A stretch of 63,681 bases of DNA, counting the filler, from Collodictyon triciliatum (Eukaryota): assembly GCA_043381765.1 (NCBI GenBank). It is 11 parts of 11 records of this genome, joined end to end, with 100 filler letters (N's around TTAATTAATTAA, not from the genome) between each part and the next. Parts side by side here need not be neighbours in the genome. Positions count along the whole stretch, not along the records: positions 52,627 to 58,101 come from JBHJMP010005160.1; 10 more parts are not named here. One strand, given 5' to 3'. Below are positions 5,499 to 58,396 of this stretch, piece by piece (position 1 is the first letter of the stretch; the number at the start of each line of letters is the position of its first letter). The translations under genes and the position numbers were made by a program. The notes beneath the pieces were generated by a model. It ran no database searches. It was not told where the DNA came from and saw nothing but the letters and a program-made list of their open reading frames with translations.

Positions 5499-5598
5499 NN
5501 NNNNNNNNNNNNNNNNNNNNNNNNNNNNNNNNNNNNNNNNNNTTAATTAATTAANNNNNNNNNNNNNNNNNNNNNNNNNNNNNNNNNNNNNNNNNNNN
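5499..5598. other. Artificial contig-joining linker (44N-TTAATTAATTAA-44N); identical linkers at 11089-11188, 16675-16774, 19762-19861, 25347-25446, 30932-31031, 36513-36612, 46946-47045, 52527-52626, 58102-58201
   Basis: Ten identical 100-bp spacers whose core gives stops in all six frames. Flanking contigs are mostly 5475-5498 bp, and genes are cut off at the linkers. Confidence 0.97.
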
Positions 5599-11949: not shown

Positions 11950-14900
11950 TTATTTTTTGGTCATGAATGACTAGACAAAGACATACTTACTTCCACACAA
12001 CACAACCCAACACCCCCACCGTACGTTCTTAGACCTTTACTTCAGACCATCGGGAAAACTAGGAGCCGCCGATCCACCACCCCTCCCCCCTCCTCCAAGT
12101 AGTAGATCGAAACAGTTCCCTTTCCCACGGATTTTGTCTTTTGTCCCTCTCATTTTCAACTGTATCTGAGTTTTGTCCATGACTTTTGTTTGAACATTTT
12201 CCGATTGAAGATGAACAATCAATTCTTAATATGGTAGATTAAATAAAATAAAATGATTCTTCAGCTATTCCTCGTAATTGTCAGGTTCAACCATTTATCA
12301 AAACGAGACCTAAATTAAGAATGAAGTTTGATTGATAATCTGCTAAAAATTAGGCTTTGCACATGTACTTAAAATGTGCGTACTTGGTTTTTCTATCGTT
12401 GAATATCAAATGTGACGAATTTTCTGTGATACAAATTTAAAATTTTTCGTACTTTTCAATTATGAGAGTTAGAAGGTAAAATTAGACAAGAATCATACTT
12501 TTTTACTGTCATAATCTTGGTCAATCTGGCCCAATGATTACACTATTCTTTGTAATGCCCTCAAAGTTTTAATTATGAGTTTCTTTAATTATTGTAAAAA
12601 AAATAGATTCATGGTACTTGAAACCTTCAGATAAATAAATTTCCTTTCGATACTATGAATTGGCTTGGTCAACTTACTGAATGACTTATTTATCACCAAA
12701 AAATGAAAGCTCCAGAGTTCCTTGTAAGATGAAATGGGTGACAGATGGGCCCTTTCTGAAATTTCATGCAGTGCTATTAAAAATGTTTTTTTTGAGTTTA
12801 TCCTGAGAAATAATCAAAATATTTAGATAGTTGAAAGTTTTGTCCTGGTCTTCCTCCTTATGCAAGCACAATACCCAGGCTACAGGCCAAACCGCAGGAT
12901 GCAATTCCTGAATACCGACTACTTCTACGCCACCCGACCACCAAGTAGCGTCCATGCATACGATGGCTAGCGAACCAAAGCCAACATCACCGTCCTGCAC
13001 AAAATGAAATGGAAGAATAAAAAAAAATAGTCGAAAATTTTGTATTAATTACGTATAGATTTTTTCGTTACAATGAAACCCCCTCTAATATCGTTGAAAT
13101 AAACTCATGATTGATTTTATCCAACTTGGCTATCTTTTGATTCATACATCATTCAATATCATATATGCCTTGTGAAAGGTAAACGTAAAAATTAACTAGG
13201 ATAGCAAAGTATCAGAATCTAGCGTTTATTTAGTCATAAAATACATGTAGTGATTTTCCCAAATATGTGTCATACCTGAATCTGCTTGATTAAAGTATGA
13301 TTTTGAGATTCAAGGAGTCGAGTTGAATGGAAGAATATCTTCAGACTATAAGAATGGATAATTCCTTATTTATGTTTCCAAAATTTTGAGTAATACTGTA
13401 GTTGCTAATAAAAAAATAAAGGAATATTATTCAGAGTTTGCAAAAATAATTAACAGTATTCATGCTGGTTCCGCTAATGCCTATGCTGAATAAGTTATGC
13501 TGGTTTGTCGGCTGTTATACTTTATCTGTTAAATACTAGATATACATAAGTCAAGGGTATTGAATTTGGAGTCGAATAGAATGAACGAATATAAAGGAAT
13601 CTGATAGTAAAGGAGAGCAGGGTAGTCGCGTGCGCTTTCGCCCCAGGGGATTTCGCCTCCGATCAAATTGAAGTCAGAGACCTTGGTAGTTGCACCTCTT
13701 AAAGGTTGCAACTATTCTCGACCCTATCGGTTGCATATTGATGAGCCACAAATCCAGATTCCATACGCTGCTGGCCTGAACTTCTTAACCGACACATGTC
13801 ACTGCTTTCAACCAAGATGCAACAACTACGGCGTCCTGTAAAATTTCTTAAACACTCCATTCACTTGTATCGAATAAAGGAAAATATGTATAAACGAGGT
13901 ATTTATTTTTTCCACCAATAGGCGAATCCCATGAAAAAAGCCGAGTTGAGAAGAGAAAAGCAAACAGATCAACAACCAACCTGAAAGCAAATCCAATATC
14001 TAAGAGATGTTCTTAAAGTCTACGTTTGAAGGATCTCCATCGAAGTGACTTACTGTGGGCAGAGCAACCAGAGATTCAATCGCCCCGAAGCTCCTAGAAA
14101 GCATCACAAACCGCATGAGATTGGAATATAATTCCTTAAGATTCTTTGTAACAACGGCGAATTGCAAGTCAGCTAAAGCTTCCATAAAAAAATAAAAATA
14201 GAATCAAGGGCATTTCATATAGTGTGGATGCATGGCCAACAATGCTTTGCGACAAAAAGGCTCGGAAATCCGGAAGACCCCAGCTCTCCTTGGCTTGTGA
14301 ATATTCGTAATGATAAAGGCCCTAAAACCTCCGCAGGAAGGAGGAATAGTTAAATCTAATGTTATTTGGATATGTAGATAAGTTTTCATGTGTTTTGAGT
14401 TTTGAGTTTTGGTCGGTCGTGTGTAACATAACCCAGGGATAATGCTGGGCAAGGCTAGAGCCAATCACATGAAGTTTTGCTGAAGGGACTCATCTTTAGC
14501 CCGTTCTTGTTTCTTTCATTTTATTTTTATTTGCCAGCTTTTGATAGACTACCCCATTCTCGATAAAGTCTTCTGACTTTCTGACATAGGTAAAAGACTT
14601 ACTTGGGTTTAAACCTCCGCTTTTTGTAGAAAATAAAATAAAGCTATGTTTTCATGTTATATTATTCAGTTTGCTTGGTCTTATGTTGATCGGTGGTTTT
14701 TGTTTTGTTTTGTTAAAAATAATAAGTGTCCAAGCAAAAGGGATTCAATAGATCAGTTTTATGATGCTGGTCTTTGGCTTTTGTTCTTGACTGTCTGTGT
14801 GCTTTCGTTGGTGGAAATGTGCTGGTTGAGTGATCTGTTTATACTCAGGTGAGCCTGAATTTTTTTTTTTTGGTTTGTTTACATCGAAAATGAGTCGGAG

Positions 14901-14966
14901 TTTGGAAGAAAAAGAAAAGAGGTAAGTAAATTTAGTTTTCTTATTACAAACTCTAGTCGCGCAGAG
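11950..14966. repeat. ~3 kb dispersed duplicated block, copy 1 (copy 2 at ~22315-25346)
   Basis: Long collinear near-identical stretches, e.g. CATACTTACTTCCACACAAC..., GGAGCCGCCGATCCACCACCCC, ...ATTACAAACTCTAGTCGCGCAGA. Both copies carry the same LINE insertion. Confidence 0.92.
12844..13027 (+). mobile_element. 5'-truncated LINE 3' fragment with degenerate ~17-bp TSD (ATAGTTGAAAGTTTTGT / ATAGTCGAAAATTTTGT)
   Basis: Aligns to ~31300-31479 and ends GAAGAATAAAAAAAAA. Confidence 0.85.
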
Positions 14967-15238: not shown

Positions 15239-16674
15239 ATGGCAACCAAGCCAAGCTCAGGTGCGGTGAGCGCAAGCGAAACGCACAAGAGCGAGGTGCC
15301 TCAACTTGACGACGAGAATGTGGTCTACGAGCACTACCGGACGCGACTGGTGGAGCGAGCAGCGGGATGCAGCAAAAGGGACTCTACCCGGCTGGCTGCG
15401 TGGTGCGCCTTGTGGGCGAGTACACTGGGACACTAACGCACGCCACACACCTGCGTCTGCTGGAGCAGCTGTGCAAAGTCCACTGCACCCGCGAGTGCGC
15501 CATGGAGGGTGTTGTGCTGCTGGCATCCGACCTGTCGAGCGGCCTGGGCCTTGCATACCCTCGCAGGGAGACGGCCGAGCGCTTTGCCGCAGGAGGCTCC
15601 TTCCAATTGGACGGCCACCTCCTCCACCCCCTCATCAGGGCCCACCCTCTCCACCCCCTCATCAAGGCCCGCACCCGCCAGCTGTACGCGCCGCGCCATC
15701 CTGTCAGCCTGCCGCCGCCACTCCCTCGCCCTCCGCGTCCACTTCGCCCAGCTGCACGGCCTCTCCATGGACAACGCCCTCGTCTCCTTCGACTCCGACG
15801 ACGCACACCGCGTCCCCCACCTCCCTCCCCATCCGCGGCATCCCCTGCCGCCTCCGCATCCTCCCCGACAGGTCGTCCCACCCGCCCCAGCCTCACTCGC
15901 CCGCCTCCTTGCGGCTATCGCTAGACAGCGCTATGCAGTTAGCGGAAGACGCACACAGCGAGACCACAAGTTCGCCCAATCGGGCAAATCCCAATGGCCG
16001 AGATTTAGCTACACAGCCCTCTCCGCCCTCACATCCAAATTTGGACGCTTCGCCACAATAAAGGCGAAGCCACACCACAGCTCGCGTCGATTCCAGAGTC
16101 AGCGCACACACCAACCCTGGCAAAACCCCCCGCCAACCCCAAAGACTCCACAAGAGGCTCCCCGTCCACTGCGGACAAAGACCCAAACGCGCCCTCCAAC
16201 TCGGCAGGCACACTCACAGGCAAAGCCGCACCCAACGCCGCCCCACAGCGGACACAAACAAAGCCCGCCGCCACCCAAGCGAAGGCGAGCGGCAACTCCG
16301 ATGTCTGCAAACAGACAACACTCAGCAGCACCCTCAAACAGACAAAGCCGACAGAAACAGCCACCTCCGCGATAAACGCTGGCGTGTATGCTACTCGCAG
16401 AGTAACACGCCAAGCTACTATCGCCGAAAAAGCTGCCCAACAGATGCCCTCCCACCAGAGGAGTGTATCTGCATCGGTGTCTGTGTTCCAAAGACCCACC
16501 TCCACGGCCGCCCACACGCCGGAGCAGACTGGAACAAAGCGGGAGCGCACCCTCAACAGCAACGAGAGTACCCACTCCAACGAGCACAAGTATCGTGAAG
16601 GCATGTTTTCCAACCACATCCGTACACGCGGTCAGTCTCTCACCGACGTTGTCTCGCCCGTGGTCAAGCTGAAC
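15239..16674 (+). mobile_element. GC-rich, intronless, frameshifted coding-like region; possible ORF1 (gag-like) remnant of a non-LTR retrotransposon
   Basis: Abrupt switch to GC-rich, C/A-skewed sequence like the LINE at 62663-63681. Protein-like segments (HLRLLEQLCKVH...LGLAYPRRETAERFAAGGSFQLDGHLLHPL; FAQLHGLSMDNALVSFDSDDA) sit in different frames, followed by a P/R/Q-rich tail. No RT or endonuclease motif seen. Confidence 0.35.
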
Positions 16675-16774
16675 NNNNNNNNNNNNNNNNNNNNNNNNNN
16701 NNNNNNNNNNNNNNNNNNTTAATTAATTAANNNNNNNNNNNNNNNNNNNNNNNNNNNNNNNNNNNNNNNNNNNN

Positions 16775-18813: not shown

Positions 18814-19555
18814 GTAATTTTTTTTTTTCTTTCTTTTCTTTTCCTTTTTTTTTTTTTTTGGCTTTACTTGTCTTTTCTTTTCTTTTTTCGCTTTACTTGT
18901 ATGTTTAGTTGTTGGCCTTCAGGGGCAGATGAAAATGTTCCCGTCCAAGTGACGTATCAAAGCACTACCTACTATGCCCACGGTCTTGCTAACTCCCCAA
19001 GCCCTGCCTTCCGATAATCAGGTGCAAGAGGTCCTTGCCAAAGACACCATGGCCGTGCTTGGATATGGAGTCCAAGGACGTGGTCAGTCTCTCAACATGC
19101 GCGATAACAAGCTGAGTGTACGAGCTCCCACACATTATATATACATATATTTCGAAACAAAAGCATACATCCTATCTGTTTCTAAGCTATCTTACAACGG
19201 TAAAAAAAAAAAAAAAGAGAGAGAGAGACCAGTTTCTTCTCGTCAACTTGTTCTTATCTGCAAAACAGGTTGTCGTAGGTGTGCGCAAGAACGGGCCGAG
19301 TTGGGACTTGGCGCAGCAGGACGGTTGGGTTCCTGGAAAGACGCTGTTTGATGTGGAGGAGGCTGCCGACAAAGGAAGCGTTGTCATGAATCTGCTGAGC
19401 GACGCCGGGCAGAAGCAGATGTGGCCCAGTGTCAAGAAGTATGTCACCAAAGGGAAAGCACTCATGTTCTCCCACGGCTTCAGTATCGTCTACAAAGACC
19501 AGACTGGCGTTATCCCTGCCCCGGATGTGGATGTCATCATGGTTGCACCCAAAGG
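18423..19555 (+). CDS. ILV5: Ketol-acid reductoisomerase, mitochondrial/fungal Ilv5-like; exons 18423-18480, 18654-18733, 19022-19117, 19269-19555; 3'-truncated
   Basis: Presequence-like MSLLLASHLRVAAAARS, then TIDFGGVTENVVTRSEFP, the Rossmann motif GYGVQGRGQSLNMRDN, DGWVPGKTLF, MNLLSDAGQ, FSHGFS and DVIMVAPKG. Confidence 0.95.
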
Positions 19556-19861
19556 GTAAGCACGCATCCATATACCAACAGATATTTGCTTCATCAAGCG
19601 AAATGGGCGTGTCGTTGTTGAGAAATACGAGAGAAGAGGAAGGGTTGAGATTCTGTTTTGCCTTATTTTCTTTTTTTTTTATCGAATAAATGGGGGGGGG
19701 GGGGGGAAAAACATTTTTTTTTTTTTTTTTTTGCGAGAAAGGGGAAAAGGGGCGGGGGATTNNNNNNNNNNNNNNNNNNNNNNNNNNNNNNNNNNNNNNN
19801 NNNNNTTAATTAATTAANNNNNNNNNNNNNNNNNNNNNNNNNNNNNNNNNNNNNNNNNNNN

Positions 19862-22314: not shown

Positions 22315-25300
22315 TTTTGTTATTTTTTTGAATGATTGATCAAAGCCATACTTACTTCCACACACAACACAACCCAACACCCCCACCGTACGTTCTTAGA
22401 CCTTTACTTCAGGCCATCGGGAAAACTAGGAGCCGCCGATCCACCACCCCACCCCCCTCCTCCAAGTAGTAGATCGAAACAGTTCCCTTTCCCACGGATT
22501 TTGTCTTTTGTCCCTTCCAATTGCAACTGTATCTGAGTTTTGTCCATGACTTTAGTTTGAACAATCTCCGATTGAAGATGAATAATTAATTCTTAATATG
22601 ATATATTGAATAAAATAATACGATTTTTCGGCTATTCCACGAATTTGTCAGATTGCACCATTTACCAAAACGAGACCTAAATTAAGAATGAAGTTTGATT
22701 GATAATCTGCTAAAAATTAGGCTTTACACACATTTAAAATGTGTGTATTTGGTTTTTCTATCGTTGAATATCAAACATGTGACGAATTTTCTGTGATACA
22801 AATTCAAAATTTTTCGTGCTTTTCAACTATAATGAGAATTAGAAGGTAAAATTAGGGAAGAATCATACTGTTTTAGTATCATAATCTTGGTCAATCTGGC
22901 CCAAAGATTGCACTATTCTTTGTAATACCCTCAAAGTTTTGATTATAAGTTTTTTTATTATTATAAAAATTAGATTAATGGTACTTGAAACCTTGAGATA
23001 AATAAATTTCCTTTCGATACTATGAATTGGCTTGGTCAACTTACTGTATGACTTGTTTACTACCAAAAAATGAGAGCTCCAGAGTTCCTTGTACGATGAA
23101 ATGGAATGACAGATGGGCCCTTTCTGAAAGTTCATCAAGTGCTATTATAAATGGTTTTTTTTTGAGTTCATCCTGAGAAATAATCAAAATATTTAAAAAG
23201 TTGAAAATTTTGTCCTGGTCTTCCTTATGCAATCACAAGACCTAGACTACAGACCAAACCGCAGGATGCAATTCCTGATTACCAACTACTTAGCCACCCG
23301 GCCACCAAGTAGCGTCCATGCAAACGATGGCCAGCGAACCAAAGCCAATACCTTCACCGTCCTGCACAAAATGGAATGGAAGAATAAAAAAAATAGTCGA
23401 AAATTTTGTATTGATTGTATAGTTTTTTTTGTATCAATGAAACCCTCTTTAATATCGTTGAAATTAACTCATGATTGGTTTTATCCAACTTGGCTATTTT
23501 TCATTCATACATCATTCAATATCATTTACGCCTTATGAAATGTAAAGGTAGAAATTAACTAAGATAGCAAAGAATCAGAATCTACCGTTTATTTGGAATC
23601 ATAAAAATACATGTAGAGATTTTCCCAAACATGTGTCATACCTGAATCTGGTTGATTAAAGTATGATTTTGAGATTCAAGGAGTCAAGTTGAACGGACGA
23701 CGGTCTTCAGACTATTAGAACGGATAATTCATTATTTATATTACCAAATTTTTTAGTAATACTGTAGTTGCTAATTAAAAATAAAGGTACATTCCTTCGG
23801 AGTCTGCAAGAATAATTTACAATATTCTTGCCGGTTCCACTAATGCCTATGCTGAAGAAGTTATGCTGGTTTGTCGGCTTTTATATGTTCTCTGTTAAAT
23901 ATTATATATACATAAGTCAAGGGTATTGGATTTGGAGTCGAATAGAATAAATAAATATAAGGAATCTGATAGTAAAGGAGAGCAGAGTAGTCGCGTGCAC
24001 TTTCGCCCCAGGGAGATTTCGCCTCCGATCAAATTGAAGTCAGAGTCCTTGGTAGTCGCAACTCTTAAAGGTTGCAACTATTCTCGACCCATCAATTGCA
24101 TATTGATGAGCCAAAAATCCAGAATCCATACGCTGCTGGCCTGAACTTCTCAACCGAAACGTGTCACTGCTTTCAACCAAGATGCAACAACTACGGCGTC
24201 CTGTAAAATTTCTTAAACCCCATCATTCACTTGTATCGAATAAAGGAAACTATGTATAAACGAGGGATTTATTTTTTCCACCAATAGGCGAATCCCATGA
24301 AAAAGCCGAGTTGAGAAGAGGAAAGCAAGCAGATCAACAACCAACCTGAAAGATAATCCAATATCTAAGAGACGTTCTTAAAGTCTACGTTTGAAGGATC
24401 TCCATCGAAGTGATCTTACTGTGGGCAGAGCAACCAGAGAGTCAATCGCCCCGAAGCTCCTAGAAAGCATCACAAACTGCATGAAATTGGAACAGAATTC
24501 ACTTAAAATTCTTAGTAACAGCGAATTGACAAATCAGCTAAAGCTTCGATAAAAAATAAAAACAGGGATATTTCATATAGTGTGGATGCATGGCCAACAA
24601 TGTTTTGCAACAGAAAGGCTCGGAAATCCGGAAGATGCCATCTCTCATTGGCTCGCGAATAGTTGTAATGATAAGGGCCCTAAAACCTTTGCAGGAAGGA
24701 GGAATAGTTGAATTTATTGTTATTTGGTTATGTAAATAAGTTTTCATGTGTTTTGAGTTTTGGTCAATTCGTGCGTAACATAACTCAGGGATTATGCTGG
24801 GCGAGGCTAGAGCCAATCACATAAAGTTTTGTTGAAGGGACTCATCTTTGGCCCGTTCTTGTTTCTTTCATTTTATTTTTTTGCCAGCTGTTGATAGACT
24901 ACCTCATTCTCGATCAAGTCTTCTGACTTTCTGACATAGGTAAAAGACTTGCTTAGGTGTAAACCTACGCTTTTTGTAAAAAATAAAGGTATGTTTTCAT
25001 GTTGGATTATTCAGTTTGCTTGGTCTTATGTTGATCGGTGGTTTTTATTTGTGTTTTGTTAAAAATAATAAGTGTCCAAGCAAAAGGGATTCAATAGATC
25101 GCTTGTGTTTTGCTGGTCTTTGGCTTTTGTTCATGGTTGTATATGTGCTTTCGTTGGTGGGAAAGTGCTGGTTGAGTGATCTGTTATATACTCAGGTGAG
25201 CCAATTTGTTTTTTTCAAACCTCGGAACAGGTTTCTTTTCGTTTTTTTTTGTTTGTTTCTATTAAAAATGAGTCGGAGTTTGGAAGAAAAAGAAAAGACA

Positions 25301-36187: not shown

Positions 36188-36632
36188 TTCCTGCACCTGA
36201 TGGAAAACACAAGCCGTGACCCGTCGAAGACTTCACAAGTTGCAGCCAGTTCTTCTGGTTCCAACTCTGGTGCGAAAAACCCCGAGTTGCTCGTAAGTCT
36301 AGGAATACCCGTGCAAGAAAGCCGCTGCAAGTCTGTCTGATCGGACAGCTATTTTTTGTTTGGGGTCGAGCAAGTCGCTTACAAAACAAGAACAAGGCCC
36401 GCAGATTCACATGTGCGCTCGCCTCCTTCTTGAAAGCGAACAAACTTTGGGAAGAGTCCATCCAATTGCGCTTACCGGACAGCGAAGGCCTTTGCCTGAT
36501 CGCCTTCCGCACNNNNNNNNNNNNNNNNNNNNNNNNNNNNNNNNNNNNNNNNNNNNTTAATTAATTAANNNNNNNNNNNNNNNNNNNNNNNNNNNNNNNN
36601 NNNNNNNNNNNNAAAAAAAAAAAAAAAAAATG

Positions 36633-36774
36633 CACACACCTTTCTTTAAAAATCAGGCTGTCGGGTCTTTCCTGGAAGCCTTCACCACTACACAATCTTT
36701 GTGAAAAAAGTAGTGAGACCTTGGATACTAGCGCACCAGGTTTACCAGTCGAAAGAGTGGTATACCTTTTCTAG
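36633..36774 (+). ncRNA. Second copy of the Fanzor right end / candidate omegaRNA scaffold; no Fanzor ORF visible (upstream is an A-tract and the contig edge)
   Basis: 117/130 ungapped identity to 55460-55331 (-), then a shared TTCTAG end. Retains hairpins AGGCTGTCGGG-TCTTT-CCTGGAAGCCT and TACCAGTC-GAAA-GAGTGGTA. RNA function is inferred. Confidence 0.7.
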
Positions 36775-37012
36775 CCTGTGAAGTAAGTTCGAATAAAGGA
36801 GAAAAAAAAACCTGTAACGTAAATGAATTTGCTGCAAGCACGAGTGAATCACGAGATAAGAAACAAATAAAGCATGACCACGCAATAACAGAGGATGAAA
36901 AGAAATAGGGGTTCTCTTTCTTTCTTTCTTTTTTTCCAAGAAAACAGTAGAGTTAAAACAGTCACTCACGATCCTTTCTAACTTTGAAAACCCCCAACCC
37001 CAAAGCACCCCG

Positions 37013-52626: not shown

Positions 52627-52977
52627 GTCATTATCATTGTCATTATCATTGTCATTATCATTGTCATTATCATTGTCATTATCATTGTCATTATCATTGT
52701 CATTATCATTGTCATTATCATTGTCATTATCATTCTCATTCTCATTCTCATTCTCATTATCATTCTCATTATCATTCTCATTCTCATTCTCATTCTCATT
52801 CTCATTCTCATTCTCATTCTCATTCTCATTGTCATTATCATTGTCATTATCATTGTCATTATCATTGTCATTATCATTGTCATTCTCATTCTCATTGTCA
52901 TTATCATTATCATTATCATTATCATTATCATTATCATTATCATTATCATTATCATTATCATTATCATTATCATTATC
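52627..52977. repeat. Compound hexamer microsatellite ([A/G/C]TCATT)n
   Basis: Blocks of GTCATT-ATCATT, CTCATT and ATCATT units. Confidence 0.95.
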
Positions 52978-53170
52978 GTTTGCCCTTTTATAATCTGAAA
53001 ATTCGTTGCATTTTCCTCTCGTATGTATTTGATTCTCCCACTGATCTCCAGGCCAATTTTCTTAAGAATTTTCTATATAACAACTGCAAGCTACTATTGA
53101 AATGATACCTTGGCTCTTTGAATTTTTACACGTGTCGTTCTCTTTCTGTGCTTAACTCCTCTTTGCAGGA

Positions 53171-53271
<101 letters not shown>

Positions 53272-54025
53272 GTTTTATGAAAGAAAGGTTTAGATAACCT
53301 CGAAATATAATTTTAGGCTCGTCTATGCAGAGACCCCAAGGATATTTTTCTTTTCATGGATGCCAACCTTATTGGCCAAGTAAAGAAACTATCTCTCAAT
53401 TAATATAATTAGTGCTCGAACAATATCCATTCCTTTAATTTTTCTCCATTAGATAACTACTAAATAATGTCCACAAAAATCATGGATAACTCATATAATA
53501 TCCACAAGAAATTCATTCCGGAAAAGAAAAAGAAAAAGAAAAAGAAAAAGAAAAAGAAAAAGAAAAAGGACATAATATACAAGTTAAATATAAAAAAACC
53601 TCCCTCTTCCAGTATAAACCTTCGTCATGAATATTAAGTTTCTGTCCTCATCAATAGATGTGTGCATCATTTCATATCGCCTACGCCGAGTACTTAGAGC
53701 TCATTGGTGACTGCATGGGGGCCGCTAAAGTCTACAAACAAGGGATATCGTTGTATGATTCGTTCGAAATATTTGAGTTGCTATGAAGTATCCTCCAAAG
53801 ATTATAATTGGAACTGCAGTATAAAATAAAATAAAATAAAATAAAATATTAGAATCCATCACTTTTTTTTTATGGCCTTTATTTCCACCTGATTTCGGCT
53901 TCATGAAATACACGATGCAGAAAATCTTTTGTATCACCCCTATAGCTTAACTACATCGTGAAAACTACAGGAAAGCAACACCAGTCGATATTCTGACACG
54001 TCGACGCCATGATTTTCAAAAGCGT

Positions 54026-55178
54026 ATGGTGGAGTCATTAAAATCGGGTGGGTCATCTAGCAACATTCTGATGCAGGATAAAACCCCACGTTCCACAAAC
54101 CGAGTGGGTGACGAGAACCATTCAACAAGAGGTGAAGAGAATGGTAGTAGAACAAGCAACATCCAAGAAAAGAGACGTATAGCTCTCAATCCATTGTCTG
54201 ATGCCGAAGCTAAATCTCTTCATCGCCCATCCACACAAAGAGAATCGCTACCACTCTGTAAGAAAATATTGCTAACATAATACTAACTAAAATGTGACAC
54301 TTTTGAATCATTTTGTTTTTTCTTCCTGTTTCTATGTTTTTTTCATTAGGGAGAATGAGCTTCGAATTCCTACTTTTATTCAATTAATAGTGCACCTGAA
54401 TCTACATATTGCTTTAAATCAACATAATACATTCTTATCATCTCAACAAATTAAAATGACAGCAAACACAGAAGGCGCGACACTGAAGCATCAAAAGGTT
54501 TCCTTTGAGGTTTGTAATTCTCCTTTATCCCTGCAAGGGTGGATTCAGGGGACCCAAACCACTCCCAAAGTTGCGCCACAATCCTAGTTGATGATTAAGT
54601 CAAATATCTTAATCTCTAATCCACTCTATCTCGAGGGACTTGAGATCCAATGTTATGAAGGCAATAACAAATCATCTTCGGCAGAGGCTTTGTGGTTGCT
54701 GCTTTATATCTTTTTTTTTTTTTTTTTTTTGCCAGAATCCTCATTATAGCTTCCCCTTTTAAGATATACTCTGAACCTGCAACCATGGAAGAGCAGCCCA
54801 AATGGACAAACCTCCCACCAATGACCGAGCGGACCAAGGAGAATGACGGGGTTGCAGTTCCCATGGCCGGGCAGACTGTGAGTCCGTCACAAGTGCAACA
54901 AGCAATATTTCCGATTAGACGAGTTAAATTTTCATCAACATTTTCTCTCTTTCTCTTTCTCTTTTTCTTTCCCTTTCTCTTTCTCTTTCTCTTTCTCTTT
55001 CTCTTTCTCTTTCTCTTTCTCTTTCTCTTTCTCTTTCTCTTTCTCTTTCTCTTTCTCTTTCTCTTTCTCTCTCTCAAACTAGATTGATGCTGGACTTAAA
55101 CACCGTCCTGCCTACAACGCACCTGCGGAGCCAGTGGGTTTATCAAGAGGCGGATTCCGCGTGATGGAGGACTCATGA
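54026..55178 (+). CDS. Small uncharacterised hydrophilic multi-exon gene, convergent with the Fanzor element
   Basis: MVESLKSGG...LPL|, ANTEGATLKHQKVSFE|, IYSEPATMEEQPKW...AGQT|, IDAGLKHRPAYNAPAEPVGLSRGGFRVMEDS*, with GT-AG boundaries. Confidence 0.5.
54945..55074. repeat. (CTCTTT)n intronic microsatellite
   Basis: Direct reading. Confidence 0.95.
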
Positions 55179-55321
55179 CCGCCAGAGACACCTCGCCATT
55201 GCAGGCTCTGCCGATTCCTTTGCCTGCTATTTGCACATAAAGCGAAACATAAACCACAGAGAATTCCAAACATTCGTTGCTTTCGAGTGGCGCTATGTTT
55301 TGGTTTGCTTCTTTTAGATGA

Positions 55322-55460
55322 CTAGAAGTATACCAATCTTTCGATTGGTAAACCTGGTGCGCTAGTATCCAAGGTCTCGCCACTTTTTTCACAAAGATAG
55401 TCCAGTGGTGTAGGCTGCCAGGAAAGACCCGACAGCCTGTTTTTTAGAGGAAGGTGTATG
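55322..55460 (-). ncRNA. Fanzor element right end / candidate omegaRNA scaffold
   Basis: Directly 3' of the Fanzor RuvC-III. Contains an 11-bp hairpin AGGCTGTCGGG/CCTGGCAGCCT, a CCACT/AGTGG stem, a CCTTGG/CCAGG stem and a perfect TACCAATC-GAAA-GATTGGTA hairpin, then TACTTCTAG. Duplicated at 36633-36774. Confidence 0.75.
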
Positions 55461-55474
55461 AATATTTTGAAGGA

Positions 55475-57329
55475 TTAAAAGAACTTTCTGAGTAGATTTT
55501 TAGCGCTGTTAAAGTCCTTTGTCAAGAATACACTTTGTTTGCTTTTTGAGTGATTACATTCTTTACATATTAGACATTTATACATCTTTTGAACTTTCCA
55601 TTCGGCGTTATATATTCCAGTTCTTTTTCGCAGGTAAAACACATCTCGAGGTTCTTAATTCATTTACACTAACTGTTTCAAAACGTTTGGATTGTATTTT
55701 TTATAACCCTCTTCCGATTGTTGGCATAAAATGTTTCATCTGAGATTTTCTGCTCCTGTCTCCATACGCTAGTACAACATCCTTGCCAAATGTCTTTTCG
55801 ATTCGGTCCACAAACAATAGTTCACTTCTTTTTGTATTAGCATAATGTCTCCATCTCATCTTTCGAAAAGTTACGTGTTCATAAAATCCGGAAAATTCTA
55901 TCTGGTATCTTGATTTCATAGATACATATTTTTGAAATTTTTCATAATCGGCCGCGCATGAATTATGTTTACACAGTTCTGTCTCTAAATCGATTAAAGA
56001 TACTTTTGATGTCCCAAACTGCTGATTCTCTTTAAAAGTCATGAGACCAAAAGAAACAACACTTTGTAAACCCGTTGCTATGCATATCCTTGAAAAATTG
56101 TACTTTTCTTTATCGCGCAAGAGTGTATTTTGTGATTTTTAAAGAGATTTGCTATCATGTCTTCTTTGGTGTATCTTGTAACGTAATTTCTTACCTTTCT
56201 CATCCACCATGTAAACCATATTAAACTTACCAGCGTTCACTCTAGCTATTTTTTTGCCGCTAATAAAGTTAACTACTCTTCGGAAAGCTCATCTATAAAC
56301 ACATTCTTCGGTTGTTTGATTATATTTGAATTTTGAATCTGAAATACCTTTCTTTTTCAAACAATAATGACACCGCCAAGCCGTCTCTTTGTATCATGTA
56401 TTTAAAATTGTAGTCTCTTTGATGAAATACCCTCTTCATTTCAAAGAACTCATCCCATAGTGTTTATGCATCCTGATATATCCTTCATGAGTGATGTTTT
56501 CCCCAGTTGATACTAATAAATTTATCAAATATGCAGTATCTAGAGTAATATGAAATGGTGTATTGGTTAGTTCTTACAGAGATTGGTTGAAGCAGTTTGG
56601 CTCCAATGTCCTCAAAAATGCGATTCATGTAAATCAGACATGCAATATACTTATTTGGATTGACTTTGACGTCATATTCGATACCATTTACAATATTGCT
56701 GGGAATGATACCATGCAAATGCGTTATAGCCCATCCTTTATCTTGTTCCGGTATTTCGAGATTCTTGAAGATGACTTTTTCAACTTTTGTAACTCTGCCT
56801 TTTTAATAGCTTCTGTAATATTCTCATCTTTAGGAACTATTTGATTTATAAAGCGCAGAAACCTCTTTGCAAAATGTTCCTTAACATTACTATGATAAGC
56901 TGTTAACATTTGATCGCAAGGTACAGTAATACAAGAGACAGTCCAACCAACGGAAAGCGCTCTTCTCGAGATAAAAAGAATCGAAAATTATTGATATAAA
57001 AAGTCATCATATCATCTCTCATATCTGGGTTTTTTTTAAATCTTGTGGGTCTACCTTGTGAAACTACTCCGACCGCCTTTAAAGCATACAAATTAAAACA
57101 AAAAAAAACTACTTTTCATCGATTGTTGGGAGCTGTTGTGATTTCAATGTGTAACATCTTGCAGACAGATAAGTGTCGGTAACCAAATTATAATGCAATA
57201 AAACCGCATCGTTGGTTTTTCATAGTCATCCGAATTCTTTACAATCGACTTTAGAGACGTTTTCACATTTCGTTAGTGTAGTTTTACAGACTTGAGATTC
57301 TCAGACTCAAGGCGATTTCTTTTCTTCAT
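55475..57329 (-). pseudogene. Fanzor1 (TnpB/Cas12-like RNA-guided endonuclease), intronless, multiple frameshifts and stops
   Basis: Pieced across frames: VKTSLKSIVKN; LPTIDE; NVKEHFAKRFLRFIN; YDVKVNPNKY...YMN; KLLQPISVRTN; IQRDG; RuvC-I VNAGKFNMVYMVDEKGKKLRY (DPGK decayed); FRKMRWRHY; IEKTFGKDVVLAYGDRSRKSQMKHFMPTIGRGL; RuvC-II VNELRTSRC; RuvC-III VFLTKDFNSAKNL. Confidence 0.88.
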
Positions 57330-58396
57330 TTGAAAGTCTTTGCTTTACTTTTTCCTTTAGAAAACTACCGAGTTTTCGATTTTAATAAAACTTAAGTCAT
57401 TTAGTCAATTAAAAAAAAATAACAACAGCATAAAGTCAATTATGAAAAATTAAGCATCTGCCGAATCTTTCAAAATGTGCGCTTTGTGGCAAACAGACAC
57501 ATATAATTTTTAGAAGTGATTTGAGACAAAACGCTGAGAGCCGATTCGACGAGTTCGAAAGGACAGCTGTATAGTCATTGCGACTGAAAGTTAACATATC
57601 GACCCCAAACAACATGATTACCGCCGCAAGTGCGGATAGTATGCTTTTTTGAAATGTATGCTTGGTGGCAGGTATATAGAATGGGTTCTGTCAGGGCCAA
57701 GGCAAAGGCTTGTTTGTAATTTTTAATTTTAATGATATTATTACATAAATGAGAATACATATAAATTGATTACATGAATATAATGAGATTGTTAAGTATT
57801 TTCAATCTTATTATATATACTAACATACTATTATATTATTCAGGTTGTCTCTTGGATTCGTCAAACCTCCTGGTTTCGTTCATCCAGATTTAATTCGATG
57901 GTTGTCTGTGCAATAAATTGCTATATATGGGTACGCTTTCGTTGTATAAAAAGTGTTGTGCCTAAAAGGGATAAACCCAAGTTCGTCACAACCTTTGTAA
58001 TGAAGTTTATTTAGTCACAGGCTAAATGAAACCGTAGAAAAAAGAAAAAAGAAAAAAGAAAAAGGAAAAAAGAAAAAAGAAAAAAGAAAAAAGAAAAAAG
58101 ANNNNNNNNNNNNNNNNNNNNNNNNNNNNNNNNNNNNNNNNNNNNTTAATTAATTAANNNNNNNNNNNNNNNNNNNNNNNNNNNNNNNNNNNNNNNNNNN
58201 NAAAAAGAAAAAAAGAAAAAAAGAAAAAAAGAAAAAAAGAAAAAAAGAAAAAAAGAAAAAAAGAAAAAAAGAAAAAAGAAAAAAGAAAAAAAGAAAAAAA
58301 GAAAAAGAAAAAAAGAAAAAGAAAAAAAGAAAAAGAAAAAAAGAAAAAAGAAACAAAAGAAACAAAAGCCAAAACATTTGAGGGATAAAAGAGGTA

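What the first reader, a model, noticed from the sequence alone, without database searches (positions are those of the whole stretch)
55322..57329. Fanzor1 RNA-guided nuclease element in a protist genome, with its structured right end
Seen: an intronless ~1.85 kb decayed ORF in an intron-dense genome, carrying all three RuvC motifs in order. RuvC-I is decayed to VNAGK (D>N at ~56236); RuvC-II E is intact at ~55660; RuvC-III D is intact at ~55515. It is followed immediately by a ~140-nt multi-hairpin segment ending TTCTAG. Established: Fanzors are eukaryotic TnpB relatives whose omegaRNA is encoded at the transposon right end just past the ORF, with the guide taken from flanking DNA. Inference: this copy is dead, but the motif set (KEHF..RFLRFIN, QMKHFMPT, TxDxNSAxN) resembles Fanzor1 of large DNA viruses, suggesting virus-host exchange. 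Intact copies may exist elsewhere in the genome. No transposase is visible in the element.
Basis: partly seen in the sequence, partly recalled or inferred. Interest (0 to 1): 0.85.

Follow-up and report, generated by a model that had tools for sequence, protein, structure and literature searches.

The report
Dead Fanzor1 nuclease gene copy
This is a full-length but thoroughly broken copy of a Fanzor1 gene, a known RNA-guided DNA-cutting gene carried by jumping elements of eukaryotes and giant viruses, so it is real but ordinary.

Summary
On the minus strand, 57329 to about 55391, lies a collinear, intronless, full-length relic of a ~646-codon gene. It is 58% identical (365 of 629 aligned residues) to an intact 648-aa metagenomic protein, P0002. 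It is broken by about 14 frameshifts and 3 premature stops. All three motif calls are correct: DPG has decayed to NAG, the Glu in NELRTS is kept and the Asp in TKD is kept.

A profile of its relatives matches only the three solved Fanzor1 proteins in the PDB (E 9e-47 to 1e-42). A confident model of P0002 superposes on SpuFz1 over its whole length (TM 0.78/0.84).

The 3' ~140 nt (55322-55468) overlaps the old ORF end. It recurs at 89% identity on another contig (36625-36774), and both copies stop at TCTAG. That position fits an omegaRNA/right end, but two copies give no covariation.

Its lineage is sister to a clade carried on giant-virus contigs. In the larger giant-virus clade analysed here, the elements are TIR-bounded, lack a transposase and have a clearly covarying 3' RNA.

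Verdict: a dead new member of a known kind. Interest is low.

The parts
55391..57329 (-). Decayed, intronless, full-length Fanzor1 coding region (~646 codons): about 14 frameshifts and premature stops at 57275, 56275 and 55703.
   Evidence: Frameshift-aware alignment to P0002: 365/629 identical, Met1 to C-terminus. P0001 vs P0002 E 3.4e-71. Three-frame translation.
56380..56388 (-). WED-domain 'TDG' motif of Fanzor1, here R-D-G (Thr lost).
   Evidence: T312 and G314 are invariant and D313 is >=90% conserved in 76 family members. The window reads MIQRDGLAVSLLF. The motif is named in PMC10711439 (passages read).
56229..56237 (-). RuvC-I 'DPG' motif decayed to N-A-G (catalytic Asp to Asn, Pro to Ala).
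   Evidence: D364 and P365 are nearly invariant in the family.
55752..55766 (-). Y-G-D-R-S: Gly at the canonical RuvC-II Glu position (rearranged active site). The family's invariant Trp is here Arg.
   Evidence: G521 is invariant in 76 sequences. W523 is invariant in the 8 closest. Window sequence.
55659..55661 (-). Alternative RuvC-II glutamate (Ealt) in VNELRTS, intact.
   Evidence: E555 is invariant in 76 sequences. It aligns to the EF/YxTS Glu of PpFz1 and SpuFz1.
55514..55519 (-). RuvC-III 'RD', here K-D: the Asp is intact and the invariant Arg is replaced by Lys. It lies in a different frame from RuvC-II.
   Evidence: R603 and D604 are invariant. Window frame 1 reads LTKDFNSAKN.
55322..55468 (-). 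Repeated 3' tail: the last ~78 nt of the old ORF plus ~65 nt of non-coding sequence, ending TCTAG. Putative omegaRNA scaffold and right end of the element, with three predicted hairpins.
   Evidence: 89% identical copy elsewhere in the window. Shared end in both copies. Fold z -3.09. Analogous conserved, covarying tail in viral relatives.
36625..36774 (+). Second copy of the tail, at the very start of another contig (36613-42093) that also carries a host-like Beta_elim_lyase exon. Either a solo ('ghost') tail or the end of a second element cut off by the contig break.

Best explanation
This is a dead copy of a Fanzor1 element lying in a eukaryotic genome.

The ancestral unit was a single intronless gene of about 650 codons. 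It encoded an RNA-guided RuvC endonuclease of the TnpB/Fanzor1 type, with a DPG aspartate, a rearranged 'alternative' glutamate and an RD aspartate. The unit also carried a roughly 140-nt structured RNA, the omegaRNA scaffold. That RNA starts inside the last codons of the gene and ends at the element's right boundary (TCTAG). The guide would be read from the flanking DNA beyond it. No transposase was carried.

This copy can no longer make the protein. It has about 14 frameshifts and 3 premature stops, the RuvC-I Asp is now Asn, and three further family-invariant residues are replaced (Thr312 and Arg603, invariant in 76 members, and Trp523, invariant in the 8 closest).

Shown here: homology, family, fold of the relative, the decay, the repeated tail with a shared end, and kinship to giant-virus-borne elements.

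Inferred: that the tail encoded the omegaRNA, and that the element once moved within this genome.
For: Homology and family:
- Full-length collinear homology to the intact P0002 (E 3.4e-71).
- The window piece alone ranks PpFz1, SpuFz1 and GtFz1 as its top 3 of 177,635 PDB sequences, weakly (E 0.01-0.04) but in the correct RuvC-II register.
- The profile of 8 relatives hits only those three Fanzor1 proteins (E 9e-47, 1.4e-43, 1.1e-42). For SpuFz1 the match covers profile positions 5-604 of 620.
- The AlphaFold model of P0002 from a 76-sequence alignment has pLDDT 89.3. Its top 7 PDB matches are all Fanzor1 (TMq 0.64-0.78). The next match is Cas12X at TM 0.33, Fanzor2 ranks 25th and ISDra2 TnpB ranks 43rd.
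- The Fanzor1 hallmarks TDG, DPG, Gly plus Ealt, and RD are invariant or nearly so in 76 members. They sit at the aligned window positions.

Tail:
- It is repeated at 89% identity, and both copies end at TCTAG.
- It has a three-hairpin fold with z -3.09.
- In 65 distinct giant-virus relatives, nucleotide conservation stays at 0.6-0.9 until about 90 nt past the stop and then falls to 0.2-0.35.
- In those relatives, 11 of 23 predicted pairs show compensatory changes.

Multi-copy family and decay:
- Two freshwater metagenome runs hold 25 and 63 short contigs that are 80-99% alike and are spread over the element. Some carry an Arg codon where the window has the stop at 55701-55703, and some carry single-base indels at or near window frameshift sites 56565 and 57219.
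- The window branch is long, 0.58 against 0.09 for P0002, as expected for neutral decay.
Against: - Pfam finds nothing in the window fragments or in P0001.
- The two tail copies differ at 13 of 131 positions with no compensatory change. The 4 differences in predicted pairs all break them.
- A covariance model of the viral tails does not find the window tail. nhmmer and blastn do not find it either.
- No terminal inverted repeat was found between the right end and the 770 nt upstream of the ATG. The left end is undefined.
- 10 of the 14 frameshift sites lie within 12 nt of a homopolymer of 4 or more bases, so a few could be assembly errors. The substitution lesions cannot be.
- No RNA data exist for this locus.
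Confidence: 0.88

Rival explanations
1. The copy is a relic of integrated giant-virus DNA (a fragment of an endogenous giant virus) and not a transposon copy that spread in the host genome.
For: The nearest identifiable relatives are on giant-virus contigs. These include GVMAG contigs up to 255 kb and loci with NCLDV capsid genes beside them. The sister-clade relation has support 99. Fanzor1 fragments shared between an endogenous giant virus and its algal host are in print (10.1101/2024.09.03.611062, passages read).
Against: None of the 8 flank ORFs scanned has any Pfam hit, viral or otherwise. The flanks are microsatellites of the same kinds as on the host-gene contigs. A second tail copy sits on a contig with a host-like split gene. 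Many diverged copies exist in metagenome contigs. The closest viral relative is only about 47% identical to P0002.
Confidence: 0.08
2. The gene is intact in the organism, and the breaks are artefacts: assembly indel errors, an unusual genetic code or unrecognised introns.
For: All four in-frame stops between 56288 and 55576 are TAA. 10 of 14 frameshift sites lie near homopolymers.
Against: There is also a TAG stop. Frameshifts are needed whatever the code. The catalytic Asp and three invariant residues are substituted. Other contigs carry unbroken exons of 100-330 codons, one of them 93% identical to a transcriptome protein. That argues against a 0.7% indel error rate. The alignment to P0002 is collinear with no intron-sized gaps.
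Confidence: 0.03
3. The conserved tail is only the untranslated end or terminal repeat of a young repeat family. It is similar in two copies by recent common descent and encodes no guide RNA.
For: There are only two copies. There are no compensatory changes and 3 predicted pairs are broken. The copy B fold is unremarkable (z -1.85), as is the antisense strand (z -1.87). There is no Rfam hit and no hit with the viral covariance model.
Against: The position, length, overlap with the ORF end and sharp boundary match what is shown for Fanzor1/TnpB omegaRNAs (PMC10432273, PMC10711439, passages read). They also match the covarying tails of this family's viral members. The three-stem shape is as described for Fanzor1 reRNAs (PMC10711439).
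Confidence: 0.25

Closest known systems
Spizellomyces punctatus Fanzor1 (SpuFz1; PDB 8GKH) and its Spu-1 elements
   Same: Full-length sequence-profile match (E 9e-47) and fold match of the nearest intact relative (TM 0.78/0.84, rmsd 3.9 A). Both are single-ORF units of about 2.1 kb without a transposase, with the omegaRNA at the right end. Both genomes hold full, partial and gene-less ('ghost') copies (PMC10432273, passages read).
   Different: Only about 20% sequence identity. Spu-1 has clear 30-nt inverted repeats, and none was found here. This copy is dead.
Fanzor1 elements of giant viruses (Nucleocytoviricota), such as the PGv-1-type elements of Bao & Jurka 2013 and the GEVE Fanzor families of Chlamydomonas
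   Same: Same protein family. The window's clade is sister to a giant-virus-borne clade. The fetched viral copies are about 2.4-kb units with a conserved, covarying 3' RNA and no second gene inside the conserved unit. Sharing of such elements between virus and host is in print (PMC3627910 and 10.1101/2024.09.03.611062, passages read).
   Different: 38-47% protein identity to P0002. In the large viral clade, 28 of 61 loci carry the left-arm motif of a ~35-nt inverted repeat ending TACACC...GGTGTA about 400-475 nt upstream of the ATG, and 77 of all 80 fetched viral loci have intact ORFs. The window copy has neither. The tails share no detectable sequence. The published GEVE elements carry a Tc1/mariner transposase in their full-length form.
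TnpB/omegaRNA of IS200/IS605 and IS607, and Fanzor2
   Same: RuvC fold with a zinc-ribbon insertion, and a guide RNA from the transposon right end (established knowledge; PMC10432273). These are weak fold matches: ISDra2 TnpB ranks 43rd and ApmFz2 25th.
   Different: No sequence-profile hit at E<=1 and TM only 0.20-0.21. The family here has the Fanzor1 REC/WED extensions and the TDG motif.

Membership tests
Fanzor1 (by descent) | Full-length sequence homology to experimentally characterised Fanzor1 proteins, and not to Fanzor2, TnpB or Cas12 | tested here: met
   Profile of 8 relatives vs PDB: 3 hits at E<=1, all Fanzor1 (9e-47 to 1.1e-42). Window piece alone: the top 3 are Fanzor1. Window to P0002: E 3.4e-71.
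Fanzor1 (by descent) | Fanzor1 fold: bilobed, with REC extensions and a RuvC domain with a zinc-ribbon insertion | tested here: met
   Tested on the nearest intact relative P0002, not on the broken window sequence. pLDDT 89.3. Top 7 PDB matches are SpuFz, PpFz and GtFz, TMq 0.64-0.78. The next class scores <=0.33.
Fanzor1 (by descent) | Rearranged RuvC-II: Gly/Pro at the canonical Glu site and an alternative Glu in the ..E(F/Y)xTS motif (PMC10530073, PMC10711439) | tested here: met
   The window has AYGDRS and VNELRTS. G521 and E555 are invariant in 76 members.
Fanzor1 (by descent) | WED-domain TDG motif (PMC10711439) | tested here: met
   T312 and G314 are invariant and D313 is >=90% conserved in the family. 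The aligned window position is present but reads RDG, a decay of the Thr.
Fanzor1 (by descent) | Structured omegaRNA/reRNA overlapping the ORF 3' end and running to the right end of the element | tested here: inconclusive
   The window tail has the right place, size and shared boundary in two copies, plus a three-hairpin fold. It shows no covariation and there are no RNA data. The feature is clearly met in viral relatives.
Fanzor1 (by descent) | Residence in a eukaryotic or eukaryotic-virus genome, within a mobile element | tested here: inconclusive
   The other contigs of the window carry split eukaryotic genes. A second tail copy and many diverged metagenomic copies point to a repeat family. 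No TIR, TSD or transposase was found.
Active Fanzor1 nuclease | Uninterrupted ORF | tested here: not met
   About 14 frameshifts and 3 premature stops.
Active Fanzor1 nuclease | Intact catalytic triad: DPG Asp, Ealt and RD Asp | tested here: not met
   The Asp of DPG is Asn (AAC, 56237-56235). Glu and the RuvC-III Asp are kept, but the Arg of RD is Lys. The first Cys pair of the zinc ribbon is disrupted by a frameshift.

The most novel reading that the evidence does not exclude
The tail copies are not debris. They may be 'ghost' guide-RNA loci, as in S. punctatus. This would include the one at 36625-36774, which lies about 1.45 kb upstream of a host threonine-aldolase-like exon on the same strand. 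Such loci would still be transcribed and loaded in trans by an intact Fanzor1 paralogue elsewhere in this genome or brought in by an infecting giant virus. A dead element would then go on supplying guides, and so targets, to a virus- or host-encoded nuclease.
Probability: 0.08. Interest if true: 0.45.

Novelty: new member of a known kind. Interest (0 to 1): 0.18.

Why it matters
It matters little on its own. Fanzor1 genes, their right-end guide RNAs, their presence in protists, fungi and giant viruses, their decayed and gene-less copies, and their sharing between giant viruses and hosts are all in print.

The locus adds a little-sampled Fanzor1 lineage. P0002, P0134 and this copy are about 58-61% identical to one another, and the lineage is sister to a giant-virus clade. 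P0002 is a natural intact representative that could be tested.

The family is very large: 5,695 cluster representatives at E<=0.001.

Tried and rejected
- Pfam on six window fragments and on P0001 gave no meaningful hit. Pfam on intact relatives gave only sub-threshold Cas12f1-like_TNB and OrfB_IS605 hits.
- Rfam (gathering thresholds) and ARAGORN on the whole window gave 0 hits, so the tail is not a known RNA family or a tRNA-derived repeat.
- nhmmer and blastn of the tail against 80 viral loci gave only chance-level matches.
- Covariance model R1, built from 61 viral tails with 16 pairs, was searched over the window with filters off. It gave 31 matches at E 0.12-10, none at either tail copy.
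- No whole genome is held for the window, so paralogues could not be searched.
- The 'near'-length protein search found only P0134.
It did not return the contig of P0131, the twin of P0002, so the tail of the closest lineage could not be compared.
- The look-up of sequencing runs listed no RNA holder, so nothing can be said about expression.
- The first structure prediction, from 8 sequences, was unusable (pLDDT 35.9; one search was not yet finished, result). It was replaced by a 76-sequence alignment.
- The search for TIRs in the window found nothing.
- The sigma-70 promoter and terminator scan does not apply to a eukaryote and was ignored.
- Our-findings look-ups by place, by sequence and by the first word set returned nothing.
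- Supplementary tables of the Fanzor papers were not seen. They may already list this lineage.
Full report
**What is in the sequence.** The minus strand from 57329 down to about 55391 holds one long, broken reading frame. I aligned the three frames to the nearest intact relative, the 648-aa metagenomic protein P0002, with a frameshift-aware dynamic programme. The alignment runs from Met1 to the C-terminus. It has 365 of 629 aligned residues identical (58%), 19 unmatched protein residues, 16 extra codons and no intron-sized gap. It needs about 14 frame changes. It crosses premature stops at 57275 (TAA), 56275 (TAG) and 55703 (TAA). The TGA at 55391 lies where the relative ends. The exact lesion count depends on the alignment; for example, one TAA near 56138 can be read instead as a pair of frameshifts.

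- V-N-A-G-K has AAC at 56237-56235, where relatives have DPG.
- The Glu of VNELRTS is at 55661-55659.
- The Asp of TKDFNSAKN is at 55516-55514.

**Context is narrower than it looks.** N runs come in pairs of 44 around TTAATTAATTAA, every ~5.58 kb. The window is therefore a chain of short contigs. The gene's true context is only 52627-58101. Those flanks are microsatellites and a poly-T run of about 100 nt. None of the 8 flank ORFs scanned has a Pfam hit.

**What family it is.** Pfam sees nothing in the fragments. I read 55610-56288 through two TAA stops with X, giving P0001 of 226 aa.
- Against the PDB, P0001 ranks Parasitella, Spizellomyces and Guillardia Fanzor1 first, second and third. The scores are weak (E 0.01-0.04) but the GDWS / E(F/Y)xTS register is correct.
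- In the 5.8-billion-protein collection, P0001 finds 8 longer proteins among 445 candidates: P0002 at E 3.4e-71 (60% identity), P0003 ('Transposase', viral metagenome) at 2.7e-38, and six ~620-aa proteins.
- Among proteins of similar length it finds one, P0134 (61%).
- A profile of the eight longer proteins (A2) matches exactly three PDB sequences at E<=1, all Fanzor1. SpuFz1 scores 9e-47 over profile positions 5-604 of 620, PpFz1 1.4e-43 and GtFz1 1.1e-42.
- The same profile finds 5,695 cluster representatives at E<=0.001 and 1,178 at E<=1e-30 among 1.84 billion.
- I aligned P0002, P0003, P0004, P0005 and P0009 with 71 of the 150 listed representatives, chosen for full length and a single matched stretch. 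The invariant columns are T312, G314, Y481, G521, E555, S559, R603 and D604. D313, D364 and P365 are at least 90% conserved.

These columns are the published Fanzor hallmarks: the WED 'TDG' motif, 'DPG', and the alternative RuvC-II glutamate with Gly at the canonical site (PMC10711439 and PMC10530073, passages read). The 'RD' is part of the motif of Bao & Jurka (PMC3627910, abstract and passages read).

The window keeps G314, Y481, G521, E555, S559 and D604. It has lost T312 (Arg), R603 (Lys), D364 (Asn), P365 (Ala) and W523 (Arg).

**Fold.** A first AlphaFold run on 8 sequences failed (pLDDT 35.9). With the 76-sequence alignment the model of P0002 reaches pLDDT 89.3 and pTM 0.87. Foldseek against the PDB puts seven Fanzor1 chains first (SpuFz, PpFz, GtFz; E 1e-28 to 8e-24; TMq 0.64-0.78; 8GKH rmsd 3.9 A). 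The next hit is Cas12X at TM 0.33, mimivirus Fanzor2 ranks 25th and ISDra2 TnpB ranks 43rd. The fold test was made on the relative and not on the broken copy.

**The tail.** Homology to P0002's C-terminus (...KKQAVG...) continues into it in another frame. The old ORF therefore overlapped its first ~78 nt, as in GtFz1 and TnpB (PMC10432273, passage read).

The segment recurs on another contig: 55328-55468 matches 36765-36625 at 89%. After a small indel both copies end in TCTAG, and then the flanks differ. Copy B begins 12 nt after its contig's first base. I cannot tell whether it is a solo tail or the end of a second element cut by the assembler.

On folding:
- The sense strand folds into three hairpins (dG -42, z -3.09, 1 of 200 shuffles as good).
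- Copy B gives z -1.85 and the antisense strand -1.87.
- The two copies differ at 13 of 131 positions. Nine differences fall in unpaired positions and four in paired ones, and those four break three pairs with no compensation.

The structure is thus plausible but unproven here. A three-stem shape is what Yoon et al. describe for Fanzor1 reRNAs (PMC10711439, passage read).

**Relatives and how the family works.** A scan of IMG/VR found 509 pattern matches and 374 confirmed relatives. The best 80 were kept (38-47% identity to P0002), many on giant-virus MAG contigs up to 255 kb.
- 77 of the 80 viral loci hold an uninterrupted ORF of 583-637 aa. Two of the other three run off the locus and one starts inside the gene.
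- Among recurrent neighbours, an NCLDV major capsid gene lies beside the gene in 6 loci. No recurrent neighbour had a transposase domain.
- In 65 distinct loci of the large viral clade, nucleotide conservation stays at 0.6-0.9 through the ORF end and for about 90 nt beyond the stop. It then drops to 0.2-0.35.
- Upstream, conservation fades about 400-425 nt before the ATG.
- RNAalifold on these tails gives 23 pairs, 11 with compensatory changes. Examples are columns 126/212 (CG 34, UA 22, AU 9) and 283/358 (UA 25, GC 24).
- 28 of 61 loci carry the reverse complement of the right end (TACACCTTT...AAAACGCC) 400-475 nt upstream of the ATG.

In the large viral clade analysed, the units are therefore about 2.4 kb, TIR-bounded and transposase-less, with a genuine structured 3' RNA whose last helix includes the terminal repeat. 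This agrees with PMC10711439. The window tail shares no detectable sequence or covariance-model similarity with them.

**Kinship to viruses.** I built a quick maximum-likelihood tree of 50 rows. The rows were P0001, P0002, P0134, P0003, 13 of the 80 viral ORFs and 33 of the 150 representatives. The model was LG+G4 with SH-aLRT support and a midpoint root for drawing only.
- The window piece groups with P0002 and P0134 (support 99).
- That group, together with P0159, is sister to the clade of L001, L002, L003, L005, P0003 and P0135, inside a 10-row clade (support 99). Every member of that sister clade with a known source comes from giant-virus contigs.
- The window's terminal branch is 0.58 against 0.09 for P0002, as expected for neutral decay.

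This fits shared ancestry of host-borne and virus-borne elements, which is already published (PMC3627910; PMC10432273; 10.1101/2024.09.03.611062, passages read). It does not give a direction of transfer.

**Is it a repeat family in a eukaryote?** Other contigs of the window carry fragments of eukaryotic genes. KARI_N is split over two frames. There are also SH2, cNMP-binding, Beta_elim_lyase and LRR fragments. The KARI exon is 93% identical to a EukProt transcriptome protein. Its next named relatives, at 72-75%, are the zoosporic fungi Sorochytrium and Rhizophlyctis. 'Protist' is plausible but not shown.

Two freshwater metagenome DNA runs hold small shares of the locus's words. Laid at 80% or more likeness, they give 25 and 63 short contigs, most under 95% alike, over 23 and 29 of 30 bins. 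Some carry CGA (Arg, as in P0002) where the window has the TAA at 55701-55703. Some carry single-base indels at or next to window frameshift sites 56565 and 57219. Contigs from metagenomes may come from related organisms, so this shows a diverged multi-copy family and not copies in this particular genome.

**Could the breaks be artefacts?** Ten of the 14 frameshift sites lie near short homopolymers. Against an artefact, unbroken exons of 100-330 codons on other contigs, the TAG stop and the substitutions at invariant residues all argue that the decay is real.

**Verdict.** This is a dead, full-length Fanzor1 copy with its right-end tail, belonging to a sparsely sampled lineage next to giant-virus Fanzor1 elements. 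It is a new member of a known kind. Earlier notes of this scan list 1,459 findings that mention Fanzor, in at least 234 genomes.

Noticed in passing
window 5499-58201 (N pairs at 5499, 11089, 16675, 19762, 25347, 30932, 36513, 46946, 52527, 58102; 836 N at 42094-42929): The window is a chain of contigs of about 5.59 to 5.575 kb, slowly decreasing in length, joined by N44-TTAATTAATTAA-N44 linkers that put a stop in all six frames. Neighbouring segments are therefore not neighbours in the genome.
   Followed up: partly
L006-L080 (for example L012:3529-5922): The large giant-virus Fanzor1 clade forms units of about 2.4 kb with ~35-nt terminal inverted repeats ending TACACC...GGTGTA. There is no second gene inside the conserved unit. 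The 3' RNA has many compensatory pair changes, and its last helix includes the right repeat.
   Followed up: yes
L071:495-1757 and 23 other viral loci: A ~421-aa ORF family with no Pfam hit recurs in 24 of the viral loci. It lies at variable distance and orientation from the Fanzor gene and may be another multi-copy or mobile gene of these viruses.
   Followed up: partly
window 14833-14908 and 25212-25286 (minus strand): Two stretches on different contigs share the same start (CTTCCAAACTCCGACTCATTTT...). They surfaced as the two best chance-level hits of the covariance model. Probably a short repeat family of this genome.
   Followed up: no
window 18953-19559 (+): A ketol-acid reductoisomerase gene is split over two frames, implying an intron. 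The exon is 93% identical to a EukProt transcriptome protein, and the next named relatives are zoosporic fungi.
   Followed up: partly
window 36766-38676 (+): The second tail copy points, on the same strand, towards a Beta_elim_lyase (threonine-aldolase-like) exon about 1.45 kb downstream.
   Followed up: no
window 15270-16722: A GC-rich (~48%) stretch has long open frames on both strands, proline- and arginine-rich. This is unlike the ~35% GC of the rest of the window.
   Followed up: no
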